Sequence record: OK283619.1
Source: Escherichia phage LPEK22
Reading direction: 5' to 3' (one strand)
DNA: 64,000 nucleotides
In this document: positions 42,573-51,593 of the stretch, in pieces
How the letters are laid out: the number at the start of each line of letters is the position of its first letter
Numbering within the stretch: the stretch's first letter is position 1
Made by a program: the position numbers and the translations under genes
The notes under the pieces: model-generated
The model's database searches: none
Seen by the model: the letters and a program-made list of their open reading frames with translations, nothing else
Told to the model about the DNA's origin: nothing

Positions 42573-42600
42573 CAGAGGCTATAATGGCCTCTGTTTTTGT
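42573..42600 (+). terminator. Rho-independent terminator
   Basis: cagaggc/gcctctg stem with tataatg loop, followed by tttttg. Confidence 0.7.
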
Positions 42601-42617
42601 ATTCTAGAGAGGATACC

Positions 42618-43823
42618 ATGAAAGATAAACCACATGACATCCCATATTGCGGTGTCCGTGAAACCAAAATCAAATCAGCCCATCCTATGTTAAGTTCATT
42701 CCACCGCCAGCTGGCATATGAATGGATGAGGGATCGTTATGCGATACATGTCAAGAAGGACGTGCAATGCCTTCCAGCGCCATGGACGGATAATCCGGTA
42801 TTACGCCAAGTCAAGTTTTGTAACGTGCGGAGAGAGCACGATAGGCAGTCTCGAAATTTGATCAATAATATCATCCTCGATCAGGATCTCACGCTATCTG
42901 ACAAAATGTTCAACTGTGTATTGTTCCGCATGTACAACATGTGGGAACCTATACAGGCTTTGGGTGGTCCATGGACGATCGAAGAATTCGGAAACATAAA
43001 TCTTGAATGGTGTCGAGATGTTCTTCAGGAATTCGAATCTAAAGGTGGCAAAGTTTTCACCAATGCGTTTAATACAGGCGGTCTGAAACAATGCCTGGCT
43101 TTCCCTGAACTAGTTGTCAACCACAAGGAGCAACGCTTTGGCGGCATGAAGGTAAAAGTCCATCGGGTTGGCGGTGTTATAGATGAAATGGATTACAAGG
43201 TTGCCAAGAAGCTGGCCGAAGATAATCCTGGTGAATACAAAATAGAAGGCTGGGAACCATACATGCCGATGCGAGTCATCCGCTCTTTGAAGGCATTCGT
43301 CAACAAACACCCTCATTACTTTGATCGCCTCAGGGAATTTAGCCGTCCCGACTCTGTTTACCAGGCGATGTATGACGACATTGAGGGGCTTGGACCATTC
43401 TTGGCATACCAGATTTGGGTTGATTTTACATACATCGATGAATATCCATTCAGTGAAAACCACTTCACTATCGCTGGTCCAGGTTGCCGTGCTGGTATCG
43501 ATCTGTTATTTTTGGACAAGGACGGCATGACGCATGAAGAATGCATATTCTGGGTTCGTGATCATCAAGATCAATTGTTCGCTCAGTACGGGTATAAACG
43601 TAATGAATTTTGGTCGGCAGAAGAACCGGAAGACCGTTGCATGAATGTTATGCAGTTGGAGAACATGTTCTGTGAACTTCAGAAATATACCCGCTGCGTT
43701 GAGGCGGTGATGCGCGGGGAGAAACCTCGAGGAAAGGTGGGGTATAATGGTGGTGAAGTTAATCAGCCATTACAGAAGACTCCCGTTCGTTCTATTAATC
43801 TGTTAGAGAAGATGAAAAAATGA
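42618..43823 (+). CDS. Hypothetical protein (401 aa), unassigned enzyme-sized ORF
   Basis: ATG at 42618 with RBS agagagga (track start is TTG). No P-loop, no thymidylate-synthase or ThyX motif seen. Confidence 0.55.
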   Translation: MKDKPHDIPYCGVRETKIKSAHPMLSSFHRQLAYEWMRDRYAIHVKKDVQCLPAPWTDNPVLRQVKFCNVRREHDRQSRNLINNIILDQDLTLSDKMFNCVLFRMYNMWEPIQALGGPWTIEEFGNINLEWCRDVLQEFESKGGKVFTNAFNTGGLKQCLAFPELVVNHKEQRFGGMKVKVHRVGGVIDEMDYKVAKKLAEDNPGEYKIEGWEPYMPMRVIRSLKAFVNKHPHYFDRLREFSRPDSVYQAMYDDIEGLGPFLAYQIWVDFTYIDEYPFSENHFTIAGPGCRAGIDLLFLDKDGMTHEECIFWVRDHQDQLFAQYGYKRNEFWSAEEPEDRCMNVMQLENMFCELQKYTRCVEAVMRGEKPRGKVGYNGGEVNQPLQKTPVRSINLLEKMKK

Positions 43824-44227
43824 AACCCGTAAAACATCATCGTTCATGGAAAGTATGCCCAGCGTGTTCAAGTCGGGCGACAAAATTGTTCAACATGAAT
43901 ACTGGGAAATATGAATGTCAAGTCTGTCGGCATCATTATGATGATCCAAAATGTCGATCTTTGGTCGACAAAATTTATAAATTTATCATTTTGTTGGGTA
44001 ATTGCGAGCAATATCAATATACCGTGTATGGTGATAGTTTAAGCCAGATCGATAAACATCTTTTGAAATTGATTTCGAAATACGATAAAGAAAGCAAGCG
44101 CCCTGTGCGCGTTGTGAGTACTCCAAAGGGTTATCCAAAGGGAACAAGATCAGTTACGGTTGTTGGTTACACCAGTTATGACGGGAAACGGTTCAGAAGT
44201 ATTCGAGTAAACATGATTCCCGTTTAA
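43820..44227 (+). CDS. Zinc-ribbon protein (135 aa)
   Basis: CPAC...CQVC pattern. ATGA overlap with the upstream gene. Confidence 0.5.
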   Translation: MKPVKHHRSWKVCPACSSRATKLFNMNTGKYECQVCRHHYDDPKCRSLVDKIYKFIILLGNCEQYQYTVYGDSLSQIDKHLLKLISKYDKESKRPVRVVSTPKGYPKGTRSVTVVGYTSYDGKRFRSIRVNMIPV

Positions 44228-44323: not shown

Positions 44324-46342
44324 ATGGCAGAATTCAAACCCTTCGCAACGGCAGTTAATAACAACGTGCTGGCGATGTCCGCAACTGGTCTGTTCATGAC
44401 CAATATCGATAAAGATGCTCTTTGGGATCTGTATCTGGCATCTTTCCCTGCTGGTACTAACCCGCTGTACCGCGAACGTACTGAACACGATTGCACCTGC
44501 TGTAAACAATTCATCCGTAACATCGGCGGTGTTGTCACCATCGATTCAGAACTGAACGTAATTTCTATCTGGGACAACATTGATCTGGGTAATGAATATG
44601 ACGTGGTGGCTGCGGCTCTTTCCGCGTATGTCAAACAACACGCAATCGTCGATGTTTATTTTAACGATTCTGCCAAAGTCGGCCTGTCTCACAATCACGA
44701 ATCTGGTGAAGATGGCAAAATCCGTACTTACAATCATTTCCATACCCAATTACTTGGTAGCTATGTTCTGCGTCCGGACGCAATCGCTTCGAAAAAAGGT
44801 GAAATCCGCCAGGCTATTGAATTGTTTGAACGCGGTCTGCGTGAAATTACTCTGGAATCAGCTGAAATCGTTCTGGAACTGATTGACCAGAATTCTCTGT
44901 ATCGCGGCGCAGAACACAAAGCAGCAGTGAAGGGATTTGTTGAAACCAAAAAGGCATATGAACAAGTCCCCGAATCAGCCCGTTCTCTTTGGGCATGGCA
45001 TACTGGATACCGTTCAAACAATCATGTTCCACACGGCATCCGCAACACAGTTATCGGCACTCTGCTGACAGATATCAGCGAAGGCGTGGAACTGGAAAAG
45101 GCTGTTAAATCGTTTGAATCCAAAGTTGCTCCGGCGAACTACAAACGTCCGACAGCGCTGGTTTCAAAATCCATGATCGAAAACGCTCAGAAAGAAGTTA
45201 TTGCTCTGGGTTTGGAAGACTCACTGGCGCGTCGTTATGCGGTTTACGATGATCTGACAATCAACAACGTTCTGTTCGCAGATCTGGCCGCTCAGAAAGC
45301 GATGGATCCGTTTGCACAGCTGGCCGCCGAAGTGAAAACTCCGACCAAATCCCTGGAAAAAGTTGAAGAGATCAGCGTTGATGATTTCCTGAGCAATGTT
45401 CTGCCAAAAGCGCATTCAATGGAAGTGCTTGTAGAGAATTCTCATACTAGCAACCTGATGTCCCTGGTTGCTCCGGCGAACCCAGATGCGCCTAACCTGT
45501 TCAAGTGGAACAACGGTTTCTCCTGGTCTTACAACGGTGAAGTGACCGATTCCATTAAAGAACGTGTAAAGGCTGCTGGTGGTAAAGTTGACGGGTATCT
45601 GCGCGTTTCCTTGGCGTGGCACAACAACGACGACCTCGATCTGCATATGTTCAACAACATGGAGCACGTTTACTTCCGTGATCGCCGCTCTATGACAGGT
45701 GCCCATCTGGATATCGATATGAACGGTATGGATGGTATTGATCCAAACCGCGCTCCGGTGGAAAATATCATCTTTACAGATGAAAGCAAGCTGCGCGATG
45801 GTGAATACCGTTTCGAAATCCACAACTACAATCAACGTGAAAAAATCGACGAAGGGTTTGAAGTCGAAGTAGAATACAAAGGCGCAACGCATCGTTTCAG
45901 CCATCCTGGCCTGAAAGATCAGGGGCGTATCACTGCAGTCATCCTGACTGTTAAAGACAAACAAGTTGTTGGCATTAAGTCCGAACTGGCTAATGTTGAT
46001 AAGTCTAAAGAAGTTTGGGGTATCAAGACCGCGACCTTCCAGAAAGTACAGCTGGTTCTGAATTCACCAAACCATTGGGATGGGGAGCAAACTGGTAACA
46101 AGCATGTGTTCTTCATTCTTGAAGGCTGTGCTAATCCTGAAGGTACTCGTGGTTTCTACAACGAATATCTGAAGCCGGAACTGGATAAACATCGTAAGGT
46201 TTTTGAAATGTTGGGTAGTAAAATGAAAGTCCAGCCGAATGAAAACCAACTGTCCGGTCTGGGATTCTCGACGACGCAACGCAACCACGTGTTCGTCAAA
46301 GTGTCCGGCGCGTTTAACCGTACTGTAAAAGTCATTTTCTAA
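44324..46342 (+). CDS. Hypothetical protein (672 aa), unassigned
   Basis: Long clean ORF with ATG and upstream caggaagactataccATG context. No motif recognised by eye. Confidence 0.6.
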   Translation: MAEFKPFATAVNNNVLAMSATGLFMTNIDKDALWDLYLASFPAGTNPLYRERTEHDCTCCKQFIRNIGGVVTIDSELNVISIWDNIDLGNEYDVVAAALSAYVKQHAIVDVYFNDSAKVGLSHNHESGEDGKIRTYNHFHTQLLGSYVLRPDAIASKKGEIRQAIELFERGLREITLESAEIVLELIDQNSLYRGAEHKAAVKGFVETKKAYEQVPESARSLWAWHTGYRSNNHVPHGIRNTVIGTLLTDISEGVELEKAVKSFESKVAPANYKRPTALVSKSMIENAQKEVIALGLEDSLARRYAVYDDLTINNVLFADLAAQKAMDPFAQLAAEVKTPTKSLEKVEEISVDDFLSNVLPKAHSMEVLVENSHTSNLMSLVAPANPDAPNLFKWNNGFSWSYNGEVTDSIKERVKAAGGKVDGYLRVSLAWHNNDDLDLHMFNNMEHVYFRDRRSMTGAHLDIDMNGMDGIDPNRAPVENIIFTDESKLRDGEYRFEIHNYNQREKIDEGFEVEVEYKGATHRFSHPGLKDQGRITAVILTVKDKQVVGIKSELANVDKSKEVWGIKTATFQKVQLVLNSPNHWDGEQTGNKHVFFILEGCANPEGTRGFYNEYLKPELDKHRKVFEMLGSKMKVQPNENQLSGLGFSTTQRNHVFVKVSGAFNRTVKVIF

Positions 46343-46771: not shown

Positions 46772-46800
46772 CAACCCCGCCTTGTGCGGGGTTTCTTTTG
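46772..46800 (+). terminator. Rho-independent terminator
   Basis: ccccgccttgtgcgggg hairpin plus tttcttttg. Confidence 0.75.
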
Positions 46801-46810
46801 GAGAAATATT

Positions 46811-47047
46811 ATGAAACAAATTACTAAGACAGTACAAATCACCCAATATCAAACGGATGACGGCAGAGTGTTCGATACTCTTGGTCAGGCCGAACATTAT
46901 GAGAAGATGAAGTCCGGTATTCGCAAGGTATGCCCTTCTTGTGATGGCAAAGGTCGCGACTCTCCGTCTGGCGACGGGCGTGATATGACGACTTGTCATT
47001 ATTGTGGTGGTAAAGGCTGGGTAGAAAAGAAAGAGATATGGGGTTAA
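46811..47047 (+). CDS. Small zinc-ribbon protein (78 aa)
   Basis: ATG at 46811 (track start is GTG). CPSCDGKG...CHYCGGKG. Confidence 0.4.
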   Translation: MKQITKTVQITQYQTDDGRVFDTLGQAEHYEKMKSGIRKVCPSCDGKGRDSPSGDGRDMTTCHYCGGKGWVEKKEIWG

Positions 47048-47457
47048 TGAAACCTGTCATCTGTGATTACTGCGGCCTTCCTGCCAAATACGTCGGGGGT
47101 GATGTTGTATACCCCCACCGCCCTGAACTCCGCAATCTGAAGTTCTGGGTGTGCACTCCATGTGACGCCCGAGTCGGTTGCCATAAACATGGTGATGGAA
47201 AGACCCCTATGGGAAGGATGGCGAATGCCGCTCTCCGTGCTGCTAAGCAGGAAGCTCATAGGTCGTTTGACCCTATCTGGAAAAGTGGGCAGAGGAGCAG
47301 GAGTGATGCTTACAGCTGGCTGGCTCATAATCTGGGGATCAAGAAGCGCGATTGCCATATCGGCTTGTTCGATATCGACACGTGCCGTAAAGTAATATCT
47401 GTGTGTGACCAACTAGAGGTGTCAAACGATGTCAAAGGAAATACAAGAATCTTTTGA
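47047..47457 (+). CDS. Cys-rich hypothetical protein (about 136 aa)
   Basis: ATG overlapping the upstream stop (TAATG). CDYCG...CTPCD pattern. Confidence 0.4.
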   Translation: MKPVICDYCGLPAKYVGGDVVYPHRPELRNLKFWVCTPCDARVGCHKHGDGKTPMGRMANAALRAAKQEAHRSFDPIWKSGQRSRSDAYSWLAHNLGIKKRDCHIGLFDIDTCRKVISVCDQLEVSNDVKGNTRIF

Positions 47458-48858: not shown

Positions 48859-49029
48859 ATGACCAAACCATTTTTGCGTTCAGGAGTTGACTCTCTTGAC
48901 TCACAGTTTAAACCCAGCGAAGTTTTAATCCAACAGATTGAAACTAATCGCGAATTCATAGAACACATGCTGGCGAAGCCGGAAGGTGAAGCCGTCCATA
49001 CCACTAAAGAAGGTAATAACGATGATTGA
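48859..49029 (+). CDS. Possible small ORF (56 aa)
   Basis: ATG with RBS aaggga. Overlaps the start of the vWA gene. Under 60 aa, so absent from the track. Confidence 0.2.
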   Translation: MTKPFLRSGVDSLDSQFKPSEVLIQQIETNREFIEHMLAKPEGEAVHTTKEGNNDD

Positions 49030-51238
49030 ATCATTAACATTTAAGAATGCGGTTGCGACCGTCGCGCCGTCTAACCATGTAATCGTTGTGGATATCTCCG
49101 GTTCCATGTATCGTTCACTTCCAGAAGTCCGTAAGCATCTGAAGGAGAACCTGCCTTCCCTGGTGAAACCGGAAGATACTGTGAGCATCCTTTACTTTTC
49201 ATCTCGCGGTGATTTCGGAACGGTATTTGCCGGACGTCAGATTAACAGTGCAACTGACCTCAGTGAGATCAATAATCTAATTGACCGTTTCCTGAAGCCT
49301 TCTGGTTGTACTGGTTTTGTTGAGCCGCTGAAACTGGCTGCGGAAACTGCCATTAGCCTGAATAAACCTGGTTATGTTAACAACCTGGCATTCATGACCG
49401 ACGGGTATGACAACTGCTGGCGTTCTAATGAAATCCTGGATGCCGCTGAAGTACTGCCCAAAGCGTTTGATAACATTACCTTCATCGAATACGGTTGGTA
49501 TTGTAATCGCGAACTGCTGGGGCTAATGGCAGAACGTTCTGGTGCGACCCACGTATTCGCCGAAGGACAGAATGAATATCAGACCGAATTGGAAAACGTG
49601 CTGAAAACTTCTTCACCGAAAGTTGTAGTCGATGTTCCTCTGGTTTATACCCATGCCATTTATGTTGAAAATGGCGTGGCGACTGTTTTAGCTGTGCATC
49701 CTGATGAAGAGCACCCTATTGGCCACGTCAGCATCCCTGAAAGCGTTTCTCAGCTGTGGGTTGTAAACCCCAACATGATCGACCAGCTGGATAATCTGGC
49801 AGACATCCAAGCGGCATACGTGCTGGCATTTTACGGCGTGTATACCATGGACGCCGATCTGGTCTGGGCCGCGCTGAAGAAGACGGGTGACGTCCGCTTC
49901 ATCAAACAGTACAGCAACTGTTTCACCAAGCAGGACTATTCCAACATCAAAGTCGATCTGACTCAGGCTATCGTAGACGAATCTCTGCGAGGAGTTGATG
50001 GCATCGATTATAATATGGTTCCGGCTGAAGACGCCACCACCATTGTTGATGTTCTGACGTATCTGGCTGAAGCAGATGTCTCTATCGTCACCAAGCATCC
50101 ACTATTCTCTTACAAGAGCATTGGGCGCGGTACTGTACAGAAAGTTGATGACACCGAAGACAAGTTGGCCGAAGAGATTGCGAATGCGACTTCTAAAGAA
50201 GAGCGTAAAGCCCTGGCGCTCAAACTGGCCGAGCACGAAGATTGGACCCCCGAATTCAATCCGGTTGATGATAAAGGGATTGTCCCGATCAGCAATTTGG
50301 TCTACAATTCAGAACGTCCTAACATCAGTGTGCAGACAGTTCAACACGGAACGGTTGTTGTGCCTGAGTTTGTACAGAAGAAATATGAACTTCCTGAAGA
50401 GCTGGGGACCTGGCGTTATCGCAATTACACCATTGTCAAGGATGGTATCATCAACCTGAAAACAATGCCTATCACTGCAGATTCTCCGATTGTTCGGGCT
50501 AAGGTGGCACAGGATTTGACTGCCATGGGTGTTCATGTGTTTGGTGGACCGGAAGTCTTCATTGTAAATCTGGAAAGTGTCCCAATGGTTAACCGCGCCA
50601 TGACAAAGAATATCAGTGCTGCTGAATTCTTTGCAGACAATGTGCGCCGTGAAGCATTGAAGGCAAAACAGAAAGTTCTGAAATTCTACCGTGATGAACT
50701 GGTTGGTAAAGGCAACGCTACTGGTCTGGCTTCAAAATATGGCAAAGAAGCAGCTGATTTCCTGTCAGCAAACGGAATTCGCGACTATGGATTTTCACCG
50801 AAGACTTCTTCTGTAGAATCAACCGATGTCTATATGAGTCGTGAATTGAATGTGAAAATCAAAGGCGCATCTTCACTGCCGAGCATCGCGTCTGTTATCA
50901 AAAAACAGACGGACGGTAAAAAACTGAATGTCGCTGATCAGCTGATCGCTAATGCCCTGGCTGAATACAATGCATTTGTTAAATCGCCGATGATCACCAG
51001 CGTACCGGAAGAGACTCAGAAAAAGCTGATTGAAAGCTGGATCGGAGACGCAGCAAAAGCGGCCATTAACGAAGTCCGCGCCCTGAACAAAACGCTGTCC
51101 AAGGTAGTTTATGGGATTGTTGCAGGCCATGGTTGGTTTACCGACCTGGATTTGGAAGAATCCACTATGGATGTGGAAGTTGATGGGGTGAAATACACCG
51201 TCACTGCCGAACTGGCTGAAAAAGAAGTCAAAATCTAA
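49022..51238 (+). CDS. von Willebrand factor A (vWA) domain protein with MIDAS motif (738 aa)
   Basis: ATG at 49022 with RBS aaagaaggt (track start is GTG). N-terminal VVDISGSM...FMTDG fits the MIDAS pattern (DxSxS...T...D). Long C-terminal region unassigned. Confidence 0.7.
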   Translation: MIESLTFKNAVATVAPSNHVIVVDISGSMYRSLPEVRKHLKENLPSLVKPEDTVSILYFSSRGDFGTVFAGRQINSATDLSEINNLIDRFLKPSGCTGFVEPLKLAAETAISLNKPGYVNNLAFMTDGYDNCWRSNEILDAAEVLPKAFDNITFIEYGWYCNRELLGLMAERSGATHVFAEGQNEYQTELENVLKTSSPKVVVDVPLVYTHAIYVENGVATVLAVHPDEEHPIGHVSIPESVSQLWVVNPNMIDQLDNLADIQAAYVLAFYGVYTMDADLVWAALKKTGDVRFIKQYSNCFTKQDYSNIKVDLTQAIVDESLRGVDGIDYNMVPAEDATTIVDVLTYLAEADVSIVTKHPLFSYKSIGRGTVQKVDDTEDKLAEEIANATSKEERKALALKLAEHEDWTPEFNPVDDKGIVPISNLVYNSERPNISVQTVQHGTVVVPEFVQKKYELPEELGTWRYRNYTIVKDGIINLKTMPITADSPIVRAKVAQDLTAMGVHVFGGPEVFIVNLESVPMVNRAMTKNISAAEFFADNVRREALKAKQKVLKFYRDELVGKGNATGLASKYGKEAADFLSANGIRDYGFSPKTSSVESTDVYMSRELNVKIKGASSLPSIASVIKKQTDGKKLNVADQLIANALAEYNAFVKSPMITSVPEETQKKLIESWIGDAAKAAINEVRALNKTLSKVVYGIVAGHGWFTDLDLEESTMDVEVDGVKYTVTAELAEKEVKI

Positions 51239-51244
51239 ATTCAA

Positions 51245-51272
51245 CTGGCGGGGAAACCCGCCTTCATTTTGA
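51245..51272 (+). terminator. Rho-independent terminator
   Basis: ggcggggaaacccgcc hairpin plus ttcattttg. Confidence 0.7.
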
Positions 51273-51275
51273 GAT

Positions 51276-51593
51276 ATGCTTATGTCAAACAAACCAACTT
51301 ATGTTGAAGTAATGCGTGTTCTGGCTCAGTACGCTTGTGACAACCTGAACATGGAAACCTGGCGCAACGGGGATCACAAGGACAAGTTTGATAACATTGA
51401 TGATAATATCGATGCTTTAGCGCCGTTACGGGTTAAGAATGATCTCGGCGGTGACGATCTTGACATGATTGAGCTGGTCATGGAAATCGAAGAAGAGTAC
51501 GATGTAGAAATTAGTGACGAGTGGGTGGGTAAACATGGAGATGATCCTACCCTCGGAGAGTTAGCTGAACTCGTCGTTGTTCTCTGCAAATAA
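51276..51593 (+). CDS. Acyl-carrier-protein-like protein lacking the phosphopantetheine-site Ser (Ser to Asp)
   Basis: DLGGDDLDMIELVMEIEEEYDVEISDE aligns with the ACP helix II region ([20 protein letters not shown]..EIPDE). The position of the conserved Ser is Asp. Confidence 0.6.
   Translation: MLMSNKPTYVEVMRVLAQYACDNLNMETWRNGDHKDKFDNIDDNIDALAPLRVKNDLGGDDLDMIELVMEIEEEYDVEISDEWVGKHGDDPTLGELAELVVVLCK

What the first reader, a model, noticed from the sequence alone, without database searches (positions are those of the whole stretch)
49022..51238. Large vWA/MIDAS protein with an unassigned C-terminal 500 aa
VVDISGSM...FMTDG at the N-terminus is a clear MIDAS-type vWA signature. No AAA+ MoxR/CobS partner is adjacent. 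vWA proteins in phages are uncommon and often act as adaptors in ATPase-driven systems or in counter-defence. A possible 56-aa ORF overlaps its start.
Basis: partly seen in the sequence, partly recalled or inferred. Interest (0 to 1): 0.55.

Follow-up and report, generated by a model that had tools for sequence, protein, structure and literature searches.

The report
Phage vWA/MIDAS protein with orphan C-terminus
This is a real, strongly conserved gene of large lytic phages: a metal-dependent protein-binding (vWA) domain permanently fused to a roughly 490-residue module that resembles nothing in the libraries I could search. Its function is unknown, and databases already annotate the family as vWA-containing.

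Summary
The window is a ViI-like Salmonella phage (Kuttervirus, Ackermannviridae). ORF 49022..51238 (+) encodes a 738-aa protein.

**What it is**
- The five MIDAS residues (D24, S26, S28, T97, D127) are invariant down to 21-25% identity.
- Residues 197-250 form a β-sandwich like the one next to the vWA domain in ArnB.

**Distribution and context**
- The family is large: 503 phage genomes, and 1,364 clusters at 50% identity.
- The two parts were fused in all 150 best matches apart from some ten short ones, and the family is almost entirely phage-borne.
- It has no recurrent neighbour gene. No MoxR/CobS ATPase is annotated anywhere in a near-identical phage genome.
- The overlapping 56-aa ORF is a real gene, but it is specific to Ackermannviridae.

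**Verdict**
- The idea of an adaptor for an ATPase or for counter-defence is unsupported.
- My best guess is a stand-alone, metal-dependent protein-binding adaptor or scaffold with a new second module.
- Novelty is modest, because the vWA annotation already exists and no function emerged.

The parts
49022..51238 (+). Gene for the 738-aa vWA/MIDAS protein (PHROG 2426; orthologue of RB43 ORF119c, AR9 g068 and kage_55)
   Evidence: ORF list. 99.3% DNA identity to Kuttervirus genomes. 237 mostly full-length homologues. PHROG 2426 matches end to end.
49070..49609 (+). vWA domain (aa 17-196)
49091..49105 (+). MIDAS DxSxS motif (D24-I-S26-G-S28). The other two MIDAS residues are T97 (49310..49312) and D127 (49400..49402).
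   Evidence: All five are invariant in alignment A3, which includes PBS1, RP13 and RL38J1 homologues at 21-25% identity. Codons were read directly.
49610..49771 (+). Small β-sandwich (aa 197-250), of the type that sits next to the vWA domain in ArnB
49772..51235 (+). Orphan C-terminal module (aa 251-738): helical, β-rich and long-helix segments. Invariant residues are D290, N434, S436, R467, D474, K551, D602, Y604, K614, S617 and K633.
48859..49029 (+). 56-aa ORF overlapping the vWA start by 8 nt. It is specific to Ackermannviridae and ends in an acidic ...NNDD tail.
   Evidence: phrog_8656 at E=4e-40. Annotated as kage_54. The ORFs directly upstream in RB43, RP13, RL38J1 and two metagenomic loci show no visible resemblance and gave no BLAST match.
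51247..51262 (+). Terminator-like GC hairpin (GGCGGGGAAACCCGCC followed by a T-rich tail), 9 nt after the stop codon
   Evidence: Consensus scan. This is a pattern match only.

Best explanation
The gene encodes a cytoplasmic phage protein that does not appear to be a virion component and that works as one fused unit. The N-terminal third is a vWA domain with a complete metal-ion-dependent adhesion site (MIDAS), backed by a β-sandwich like the one in archaeal ArnB. It most likely holds Mg2+ or Mn2+ and captures an acidic side chain or carboxylate of a protein ligand, from either the host or the phage. The C-terminal two-thirds is a conserved module with no known relative. It supplies a second activity, either a further binding or oligomerisation surface or a catalytic site. 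The protein would therefore act as a self-contained bivalent adaptor or scaffold during intracellular development of large lytic myoviruses, without a phage-encoded AAA+ partner. Shown: gene, fold, intact MIDAS, constant fusion, phage restriction, lack of linked partners. Inferred: metal binding, a protein ligand, and the adaptor role.
For: The vWA fold and Pfam membership are established. All five MIDAS residues are invariant across homologues at 21-50% identity from phages of Salmonella, E. coli, Shewanella, Bacillus, Ralstonia and Rhizobium. The C-terminal motifs RYRNYTIVKDGI, KIKGxSSLP and GIRDYGFSPK are as conserved as the MIDAS loops. Of the 150 best matches to a C-terminus-only profile, all but about ten short proteins (375-611 aa) place that module after a ~200-aa N-terminus, and ten unusually long members carry no extra Pfam domain. 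There is no signal peptide or membrane segment on reading the sequence. No recurrent neighbour appears across 12 loci. No MoxR/CobS is annotated in the phage, and the seven largest unannotated proteins and two structural ones gave no AAA+ hit. Virion proteomics gave one peptide in a Vi01-like phage (PMC10892097), and the homologue is not mentioned in the BpSp virion-proteome paper (PMC4870245).
Against: No ligand, partner or phenotype is known, and the adaptor role rests only on what vWA/MIDAS domains generally do. The invariant polar residues in the C-terminus would fit an enzyme equally well. Expression timing is inconsistent. The AR9 homologue g068 is a late gene (0.96, 105.6 and 431.5 at 5, 20 and 40 min; PMC5312081 supplement). 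Here the gene lies among replication and nucleotide-metabolism genes and lacks the late-promoter-like motif ACTAAATA. I could not inspect model coordinates, so the spatial relation of the MIDAS site to the conserved C-terminal patches is unknown.
Confidence: 0.45

Rival explanations
1. The C-terminal module is an enzyme of a new fold, and the vWA domain only targets it to a substrate. The precedent is complement factors B and C2, where a vWA domain is joined to a protease.
For: About 11 invariant polar residues persist at 21-25% identity (D290, N434, S436, R467, D474, K551, D602, Y604, K614, S617, K633). The strongest conservation in the whole protein lies in C-terminal motifs. Conservation this deep suits a fixed chemistry better than an evolving interface.
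Confidence: 0.2
2. It is a cochaperone that recruits a host MoxR-type AAA+ ATPase (for example RavA in enterobacteria), replacing the host vWA partner.
For: Many prokaryotic vWA/MIDAS proteins work with MoxR ATPases, and phage and archaeal-virus MoxR-vWA pairs are described (PMC7824862). MoxR ATPases are widespread in bacteria (my own knowledge), so an unlinked host partner is possible.
Confidence: 0.1
3. It is a morphogenesis factor or a minor virion or tail component.
For: The AR9 homologue is transcribed from a late promoter. Some GenBank records label homologues 'minor tail protein'.
Against: The homologue gp143 is not mentioned in the BpSp virion-proteome paper. Only one peptide was found in a Vi01-like preparation. 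Phage kage's annotation, which labels other genes 'unknown structural protein [Dickeya virus Limestone]', gives this one no structural label. In this window the gene lies outside the structural module and lacks the ACTAAATA motif found before structural genes. PHROG 2426 carries no function.
Confidence: 0.1
4. It is a counter-defence protein that sequesters a host immune component through the MIDAS site.
For: The family is phage-restricted and, in several phages, sits in accessory regions of early genes. Three metagenomic loci carry RNA-repair genes nearby: Tpt1, RtcB and a CCA-adding enzyme.
Against: The protein is conserved full-length, with many invariant residues, across phages of distantly related hosts, which is unlike typical anti-defence genes. 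There is no PADLOC similarity. It appears near-universal in the Ackermannviridae sampled rather than sporadic.
Confidence: 0.1

Closest known systems
ArnB and its paralogue VWA2 of Sulfolobus (PDB 8s05_B, 5a8j), the archaeal 'Sec23/24 core motif'
   Different: ArnB is 380 aa and works with the FHA/zinc-ribbon protein ArnA under kinase control. The phage protein adds an unrelated ~490-aa module, and no ArnA-like partner is linked. Sequence identity is 6-17%.
4fx5_A, an uncharacterised vWA protein of Catenulispora acidiphila
   Different: It is 426 aa, has no known function, shares 13% identity and lacks the C-terminal module.
Sec23/Sec24 of the eukaryotic COPII coat
   Different: No match to the Sec23/24 helical or gelsolin domains appeared in the C-terminal search. 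As far as I know, the Sec23/24 trunk has no functional MIDAS, whereas here it is complete.
vWA proteins that partner MoxR or related AAA+ ATPases (ViaA, NorD, CbbO, CoxE, BchD/ChlD, CobT)
   Same: A prokaryotic cytoplasmic vWA domain with a complete MIDAS.
   Different: Their defining linked AAA+ gene is absent. Structural similarity is lower than to the ArnB/ITIH group. The architecture differs.
Complement factor B and C2
   Same: An N-terminal MIDAS vWA domain fused to a C-terminal effector domain, as a concept.

Membership tests
vWA superfamily (Pfam PF00092, clan vWA-like) | Sequence match above the Pfam gathering score | tested here: met
   30.9 bits against a cut-off of 23.8, aa 20-182. 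VWA_2 matched 36 of 39 family members, VWA_3 20 and VWA 18.
vWA superfamily | The α/β vWA fold | tested here: met
MIDAS-bearing vWA domains | DxSxS, T and D metal-coordinating residues present and conserved | tested here: met
   D24, S26, S28, T97 and D127 are invariant in A3 (13 sequences, down to 21% identity) and at least 90% conserved in A1. Metal binding itself was not tested.
ArnB / Sec23/24-type core | A β-sandwich packed against the vWA domain | tested here: met
ArnB / Sec23/24-type core | A zinc-ribbon/FHA partner (ArnA), or the zinc-finger, helical and gelsolin domains of Sec23/24 | tested here: not met
   No Sec23/24 helical or gelsolin match. No recurrent neighbour. Zinc-ribbon genes lie upstream in this window but are not conserved next to homologues.
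MoxR/CobS-associated vWA (ViaA, NorD, CoxE, CbbO, CobT, ChlD) | A linked AAA+ MoxR/CobS/ChlI-type ATPase gene, or a fused AAA+ domain | tested here: not met
   None is annotated in the whole kage genome. Its large unannotated proteins have no AAA+ hit. None appears in 12 loci.
Ku70/Ku80 and INTS13/14 type | vWA followed by a ring-forming β-barrel and a helical arm | tested here: not met
Ro60/Rsr (TROVE plus vWA) | An N-terminal HEAT-repeat TROVE ring with a C-terminal vWA | tested here: not met
Ter system vWA (TerY/TerF) | A Ter operon context (TerD, TerC, TelA, kinase/phosphatase triad) | tested here: not met
   No such neighbours are annotated or matched in the window or related loci.
Known anti-phage defence or counter-defence components (PADLOC-DB) | A match to a PADLOC model | tested here: not met
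   No hit at E<=0.1.

The most novel reading that the evidence does not exclude
Residues ~251-738 are a new protein fold with its own biochemical activity, either enzymatic or in assembling a higher-order structure. The MIDAS domain would aim that activity at a conserved bacterial or phage target. If so, this family of more than 1,300 clusters would be an unrecognised, widespread functional module of large lytic phages.
Probability: 0.25. Interest if true: 0.7.

Novelty: new variant of a known kind. Interest (0 to 1): 0.33.

Why it matters
The family is among the larger conserved proteins of unknown function in Ackermannviridae. That group includes phage-therapy and biocontrol candidates against Salmonella, E. 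coli O157, Klebsiella and Dickeya. The family also occurs in RB43-like and Klebsiella T4-like phages, PBS1/AR9 and Rhizobium phages. Deep conservation, a constant two-part architecture and restriction to phages argue for a defined role in infection. The confidently modelled C-terminal module has no counterpart in PDB or BFVD, which makes it a good target for structure determination and interaction mapping. As it stands this is a well-defined unknown, not a discovery of mechanism.

Tried and rejected
- **AlphaFold database.** The afdb50 library was not available.
[quoted passage not shown] I rejected a link for two reasons. The pathway was reconstituted with extracts expressing five ViI proteins (gp67, gp160, gp226, gp243, gp247), and the four with assigned roles are two kinases, the transferase and the decarboxylase (PMC8989533). 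The vWA family also occurs in RB43, which has a cytosine methylase nearby, and in PBS1, which has uracil DNA.
- **The upstream 672-aa protein as a partner.** Rejected, because its phage distribution is different (N4-like, phiCbK-like and others).
- **The 56-aa ORF or the ACP-like gene as family-wide partners.** Rejected, because both are confined to Ackermannviridae-like phages.
- **Cellular homologues as a clue.** Only 5 loci turned up in 185,579 species genomes. One is an RB43-like phage contig inside a Flagellimonas assembly. Two chromosomal copies share a gene with a jumbo-phage-like contig.
- **Extra domains in unusually long members.** None found.
- **Charge profile.** The protein is acidic overall (pI about 5-6), with two basic helical segments. 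That is no strong hint of nucleic-acid binding.
- **T4 late promoter.** TATAAATA is not enriched in the window.

Full report
**Origin of the window.** The DNA of 49022..51238 is 99.3% identical to Salmonella phages of the genus Kuttervirus (Ackermannviridae, ViI-like, about 157 kb) and matches 218 phage records by megablast. I used the annotation of the near-identical phage kage as a map. The finding lies in a block of rightward genes for replication and nucleotide metabolism: sliding clamp, clamp loader, a RegA-like repressor, an NTP pyrophosphohydrolase and, downstream, a pyrimidine-dimer glycosylase (Pfam hit). Upstream at 42597..43823 sits a 5-hmdU DNA kinase (PF18723, E=1.7e-83). It corresponds to ViI gp67 of the thymidine hypermodification pathway (PMC8989533).

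**Check of the observation.** The mechanical ORF runs 48986..51238 from a GTG. The ATG at 49022 is the likely start. It follows a GAAGG site by 8 nt, PHROG 2426 aligns residues 1-738 end to end, and homologues begin there. 'VVDISGSM' (aa 21-28) and 'FMTDG' (aa 124-128) are present. Pfam VWA passes its gathering score, 30.9 against 23.8 bits. The 56-aa ORF 48859..49029 overlaps the start by 8 nt (ATGATTGA). It matches phrog_8656 at E=4e-40 and is an annotated CDS in relatives. A GC hairpin with a T-rich tail follows the stop codon at 51247..51262.

- Alignments to 4fx5, ArnB and Sec24 span 267-309 residues, against about 170-180 for isolated vWA domains.
- Residues 1-250 are therefore a vWA-plus-β-sandwich core of the ArnB type, which the PDB entry title calls the 'Sec23/24 core motif'.

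**MIDAS conservation.** In 39 homologues, T97 and D127 are invariant and D24, S26 and S28 are at least 90% conserved. I then aligned 13 sequences that include Bacillus phage PBS1 gp259, Ralstonia phage RP13 ORF156 and Rhizobium phage RL38J1 gp126, at 21-25% identity. All five MIDAS residues are invariant there. Metal-dependent ligand binding is very probably essential to the function, though metal binding itself is inferred.

**The C-terminal ~490 residues.**
- A separate model of aa 196-738 is confident (pLDDT 87.4, pTM 0.79).
- Foldseek against BFVD finds four significant hits: two named or sized like family members, an uncharacterised protein of an uncultured phage, and a Bacillus phage SP-15 protein.
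- A profile search of PDB sequences finds nothing below E=0.45.
- Pfam, NCBIfam and PADLOC give nothing. A permissive per-member Pfam scan shows no recurrent weak hit.
- The module is nonetheless under strong constraint. The most conserved 15-residue window in the protein is RYRNYTIVKDGIINL (465-479). SRELNVKIKGASSLP (606-620) and LSANGIRDYGFSPK (581-595) rank with the MIDAS loops.
- Invariant polar residues at 21-25% identity are D290, N434, S436, R467, D474, K551, D602, Y604, K614, S617 and K633.
- The afdb50 library was unavailable. 'Orphan' therefore means no relative in PDB, BFVD, Pfam or NCBIfam.

**Size, architecture and distribution of the family.**
- tblastn finds the protein in 503 of 50,697 phage records. 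These include Ackermannviridae of Salmonella, Escherichia, Shigella, Klebsiella, Dickeya, Serratia, Erwinia and Aeromonas. They also include T4-like phages such as RB43 (ORF119c) and similar phages of Klebsiella, Enterobacter, Citrobacter and Cronobacter. Beyond these are Shewanella phage Thanatos, Pseudomonas phage pf16, PBS1/AR9-like Bacillus phages, Ralstonia RP13 and Rhizobium phages.
- A profile of the C-terminal module alone, searched against 1.84 billion cluster representatives, gives 1,364 hits at E<=0.001 and 877 at E<=1e-30. Of the 150 best, all but about ten short proteins (375-611 aa, probably truncated) place the module after a ~200-250-residue N-terminus.
- Ten unusually long members carry no additional Pfam domain. 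The fusion of the two parts is effectively constant.
- Among 185,579 species genomes only five loci were found. One, labelled Flagellimonas, is in fact an RB43-like phage contig. Two rumen MAG contigs are short. Two betaproteobacterial chromosomal copies share an HD-domain gene with a jumbo-phage-like metagenomic contig.
- The family is in practice phage-specific.

**Partners and context.** No gene travels with it.
- Window neighbours have no counterparts near the homologues in RB43, PBS1 or two metagenomic loci. An all-against-all comparison of flanks in 12 loci shows only lineage synteny.
- The upstream 672-aa protein has a different phage distribution.
- The 56-aa ORF and the downstream ACP-like gene were found only in Ackermannviridae-like phages.
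- No MoxR, CobS or ChlI-type ATPase is annotated anywhere in phage kage. The seven largest unannotated proteins and two structural ones gave no AAA+ hit. Two of them are instead the amino acid:DNA transferase and the second 5-hmdU kinase.
- Neighbouring genes in other phages are typical of regions for nucleotide metabolism or RNA repair: ribonucleotide reductase, dUTPase, 5' nucleotidase, Tpt1, RtcB and a CCA-adding enzyme. That gives no specific lead.

**Timing and location.**
- In Bacillus phage AR9 the homologue g068 is a late gene with its own late-promoter start site. Expression is 0.96, 105.6 and 431.5 at 5, 20 and 40 min (PMC5312081 supplementary files 4 and 5).
- In this window a motif ACTAAATA occurs seven times, all on the + strand between 3 and 28 kb. 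None of 100 shuffles reaches seven. At least five copies lie in gaps upstream of annotated structural genes. None precedes the vWA gene, even with one mismatch.
- Timing may therefore differ between lineages, or the gene is expressed from mid-infection on.
- The BpSp homologue gp143 is not mentioned in the paper that identified 23 virion proteins (PMC4870245). A Vi01-like phage preparation gave a single peptide (PMC10892097). Phage kage's annotation, which marks other genes as 'unknown structural protein [Dickeya virus Limestone]', gives this one no structural label. It is probably not a virion component.

**Mechanism.** What is shown is a stand-alone, phage-specific, cytoplasmic-looking protein. 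It has an intact MIDAS vWA-plus-sandwich core, fused without known exception to an equally conserved orphan module.
- My best inference (about 0.45) is a metal-dependent protein-capture adaptor or scaffold whose second module provides a further binding, oligomerisation or catalytic function.
- The leading rival (about 0.2) is that the C-terminus is an enzyme of a new fold, with the vWA domain as its targeting device.
- Use of a host MoxR ATPase, a morphogenesis role and counter-defence each remain possible at about 0.1. The evidence on each is given in the rival list.
- A role in thymidine hypermodification is rejected. The pathway was reconstituted from other proteins, and the family occurs in phages with other DNA chemistries.

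**Comparison with known systems and novelty.** Membership of the vWA superfamily, with a MIDAS, is met. Membership of the MoxR-associated, CobT/ChlD, Ku, Ro60, Ter and known-defence groups is tested and not met. The closest structural relatives are the ArnB/4fx5-type vWA-plus-sandwich proteins, and they lack the C-terminal module. The vWA annotation for this family already exists: RB43 ORF119c in 2006 (PMC1524935), and 'putative vWa containing protein' in LIMEstone1 and kage. The finding is not new as an annotation. This analysis adds five points: the MIDAS is invariant, the architecture is fixed, the family is very large and phage-restricted, it has no linked partner, and its C-terminal two-thirds has no relative in the libraries available. 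I rate it a new variant of a known kind, with modest interest (0.33).

Noticed in passing
window 51276..51593 (+): The gene annotated 'acyl carrier protein' (PF00550, E=3.8e-7) lacks the phosphopantetheine-attachment serine. It cannot be a conventional holo-ACP and may be an ACP mimic. All homologues whose contig is long enough to judge sit on ~152-159 kb Ackermannviridae-like contigs.
   Followed up: partly
window 42597..43823 (+): 5-hmdU DNA kinase (PF18723, E=1.7e-83), corresponding to ViI gp67 of the 5-NeOmdU thymidine hypermodification pathway. In the related phage kage the other pathway genes lie far away: amino acid:DNA transferase PF18724, 5-hmdU kinase 2 PF18747, and a gene annotated 'putative threonine ammonia lyase' that is probably the PLP enzyme.
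   Followed up: partly
window 44324..46342 (+): A 672-aa protein with no Pfam, NCBIfam or PADLOC hit (phrog_1735). It is present in 558 phage records of very different types (Ackermannviridae, N4-like, phiCbK-like, cyanophage and others). A few records label it 'DNA-directed RNA polymerase', which looks unsupported.
   Followed up: partly
window 3231, 5441, 10666, 17181, 21431, 26214, 27432 (all + strand): The motif ACTAAATA occurs 7 times and 0 of 100 shuffles reach that number. At least five copies lie in gaps upstream of annotated structural genes (tail spikes, VrlC, neck, prohead scaffold). It is a candidate Ackermannviridae late promoter, resembling T4 TATAAATA. The T4 consensus itself is not enriched.
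   Followed up: partly
window 30085, 30459, 32015, 32037, 44232, 51671, 55185: TTCAATAA recurs in gaps between genes of the non-structural region, often before a gene start. It may be part of an early or middle promoter, or a regulatory site.
   Followed up: no
L012 (NZ_JBHSCL010000010.1, Flagellimonas marina assembly, 178 kb contig): This 'bacterial genome' contig is collinear with coliphage RB43, and many of its proteins are 80-98% identical. It is most likely a T4-like enterobacterial phage contaminating the assembly.
   Followed up: partly
window 43820..44227, 46784..47047, 47038..47457 (+): A run of small zinc-ribbon or zinc-finger proteins lies upstream of the vWA gene: a 135-aa protein with weak zinc-ribbon hits, an 87-aa protein with two CxxCxGxG motifs, and DUF3268 (E=1e-37). 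ArnB-type vWA cores bind a zinc-ribbon partner. However, these genes are not conserved next to vWA homologues elsewhere.
   Followed up: partly
L013 14345..14869, L014 15032..15574, L004 15989..16522: A ~175-aa HD_4 (RelA/SpoT-type hydrolase-like) protein lies about 4-6 kb downstream of the vWA homologue in two betaproteobacterial chromosomes and in a jumbo-phage-like metagenomic contig, at 61-66% identity. This suggests the chromosomal copies derive from such a phage.
   Followed up: no
L021 2634..3182, L023 1828..3273, L004 16765..18009: RNA-repair or tRNA-maintenance genes (Tpt1/PTS_2-RNA, RtcB, a CCA-adding enzyme) lie within a few kb of divergent vWA homologues in three metagenomic phage contigs. 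This may simply reflect how often such genes occur in accessory regions of large phages.
   Followed up: no
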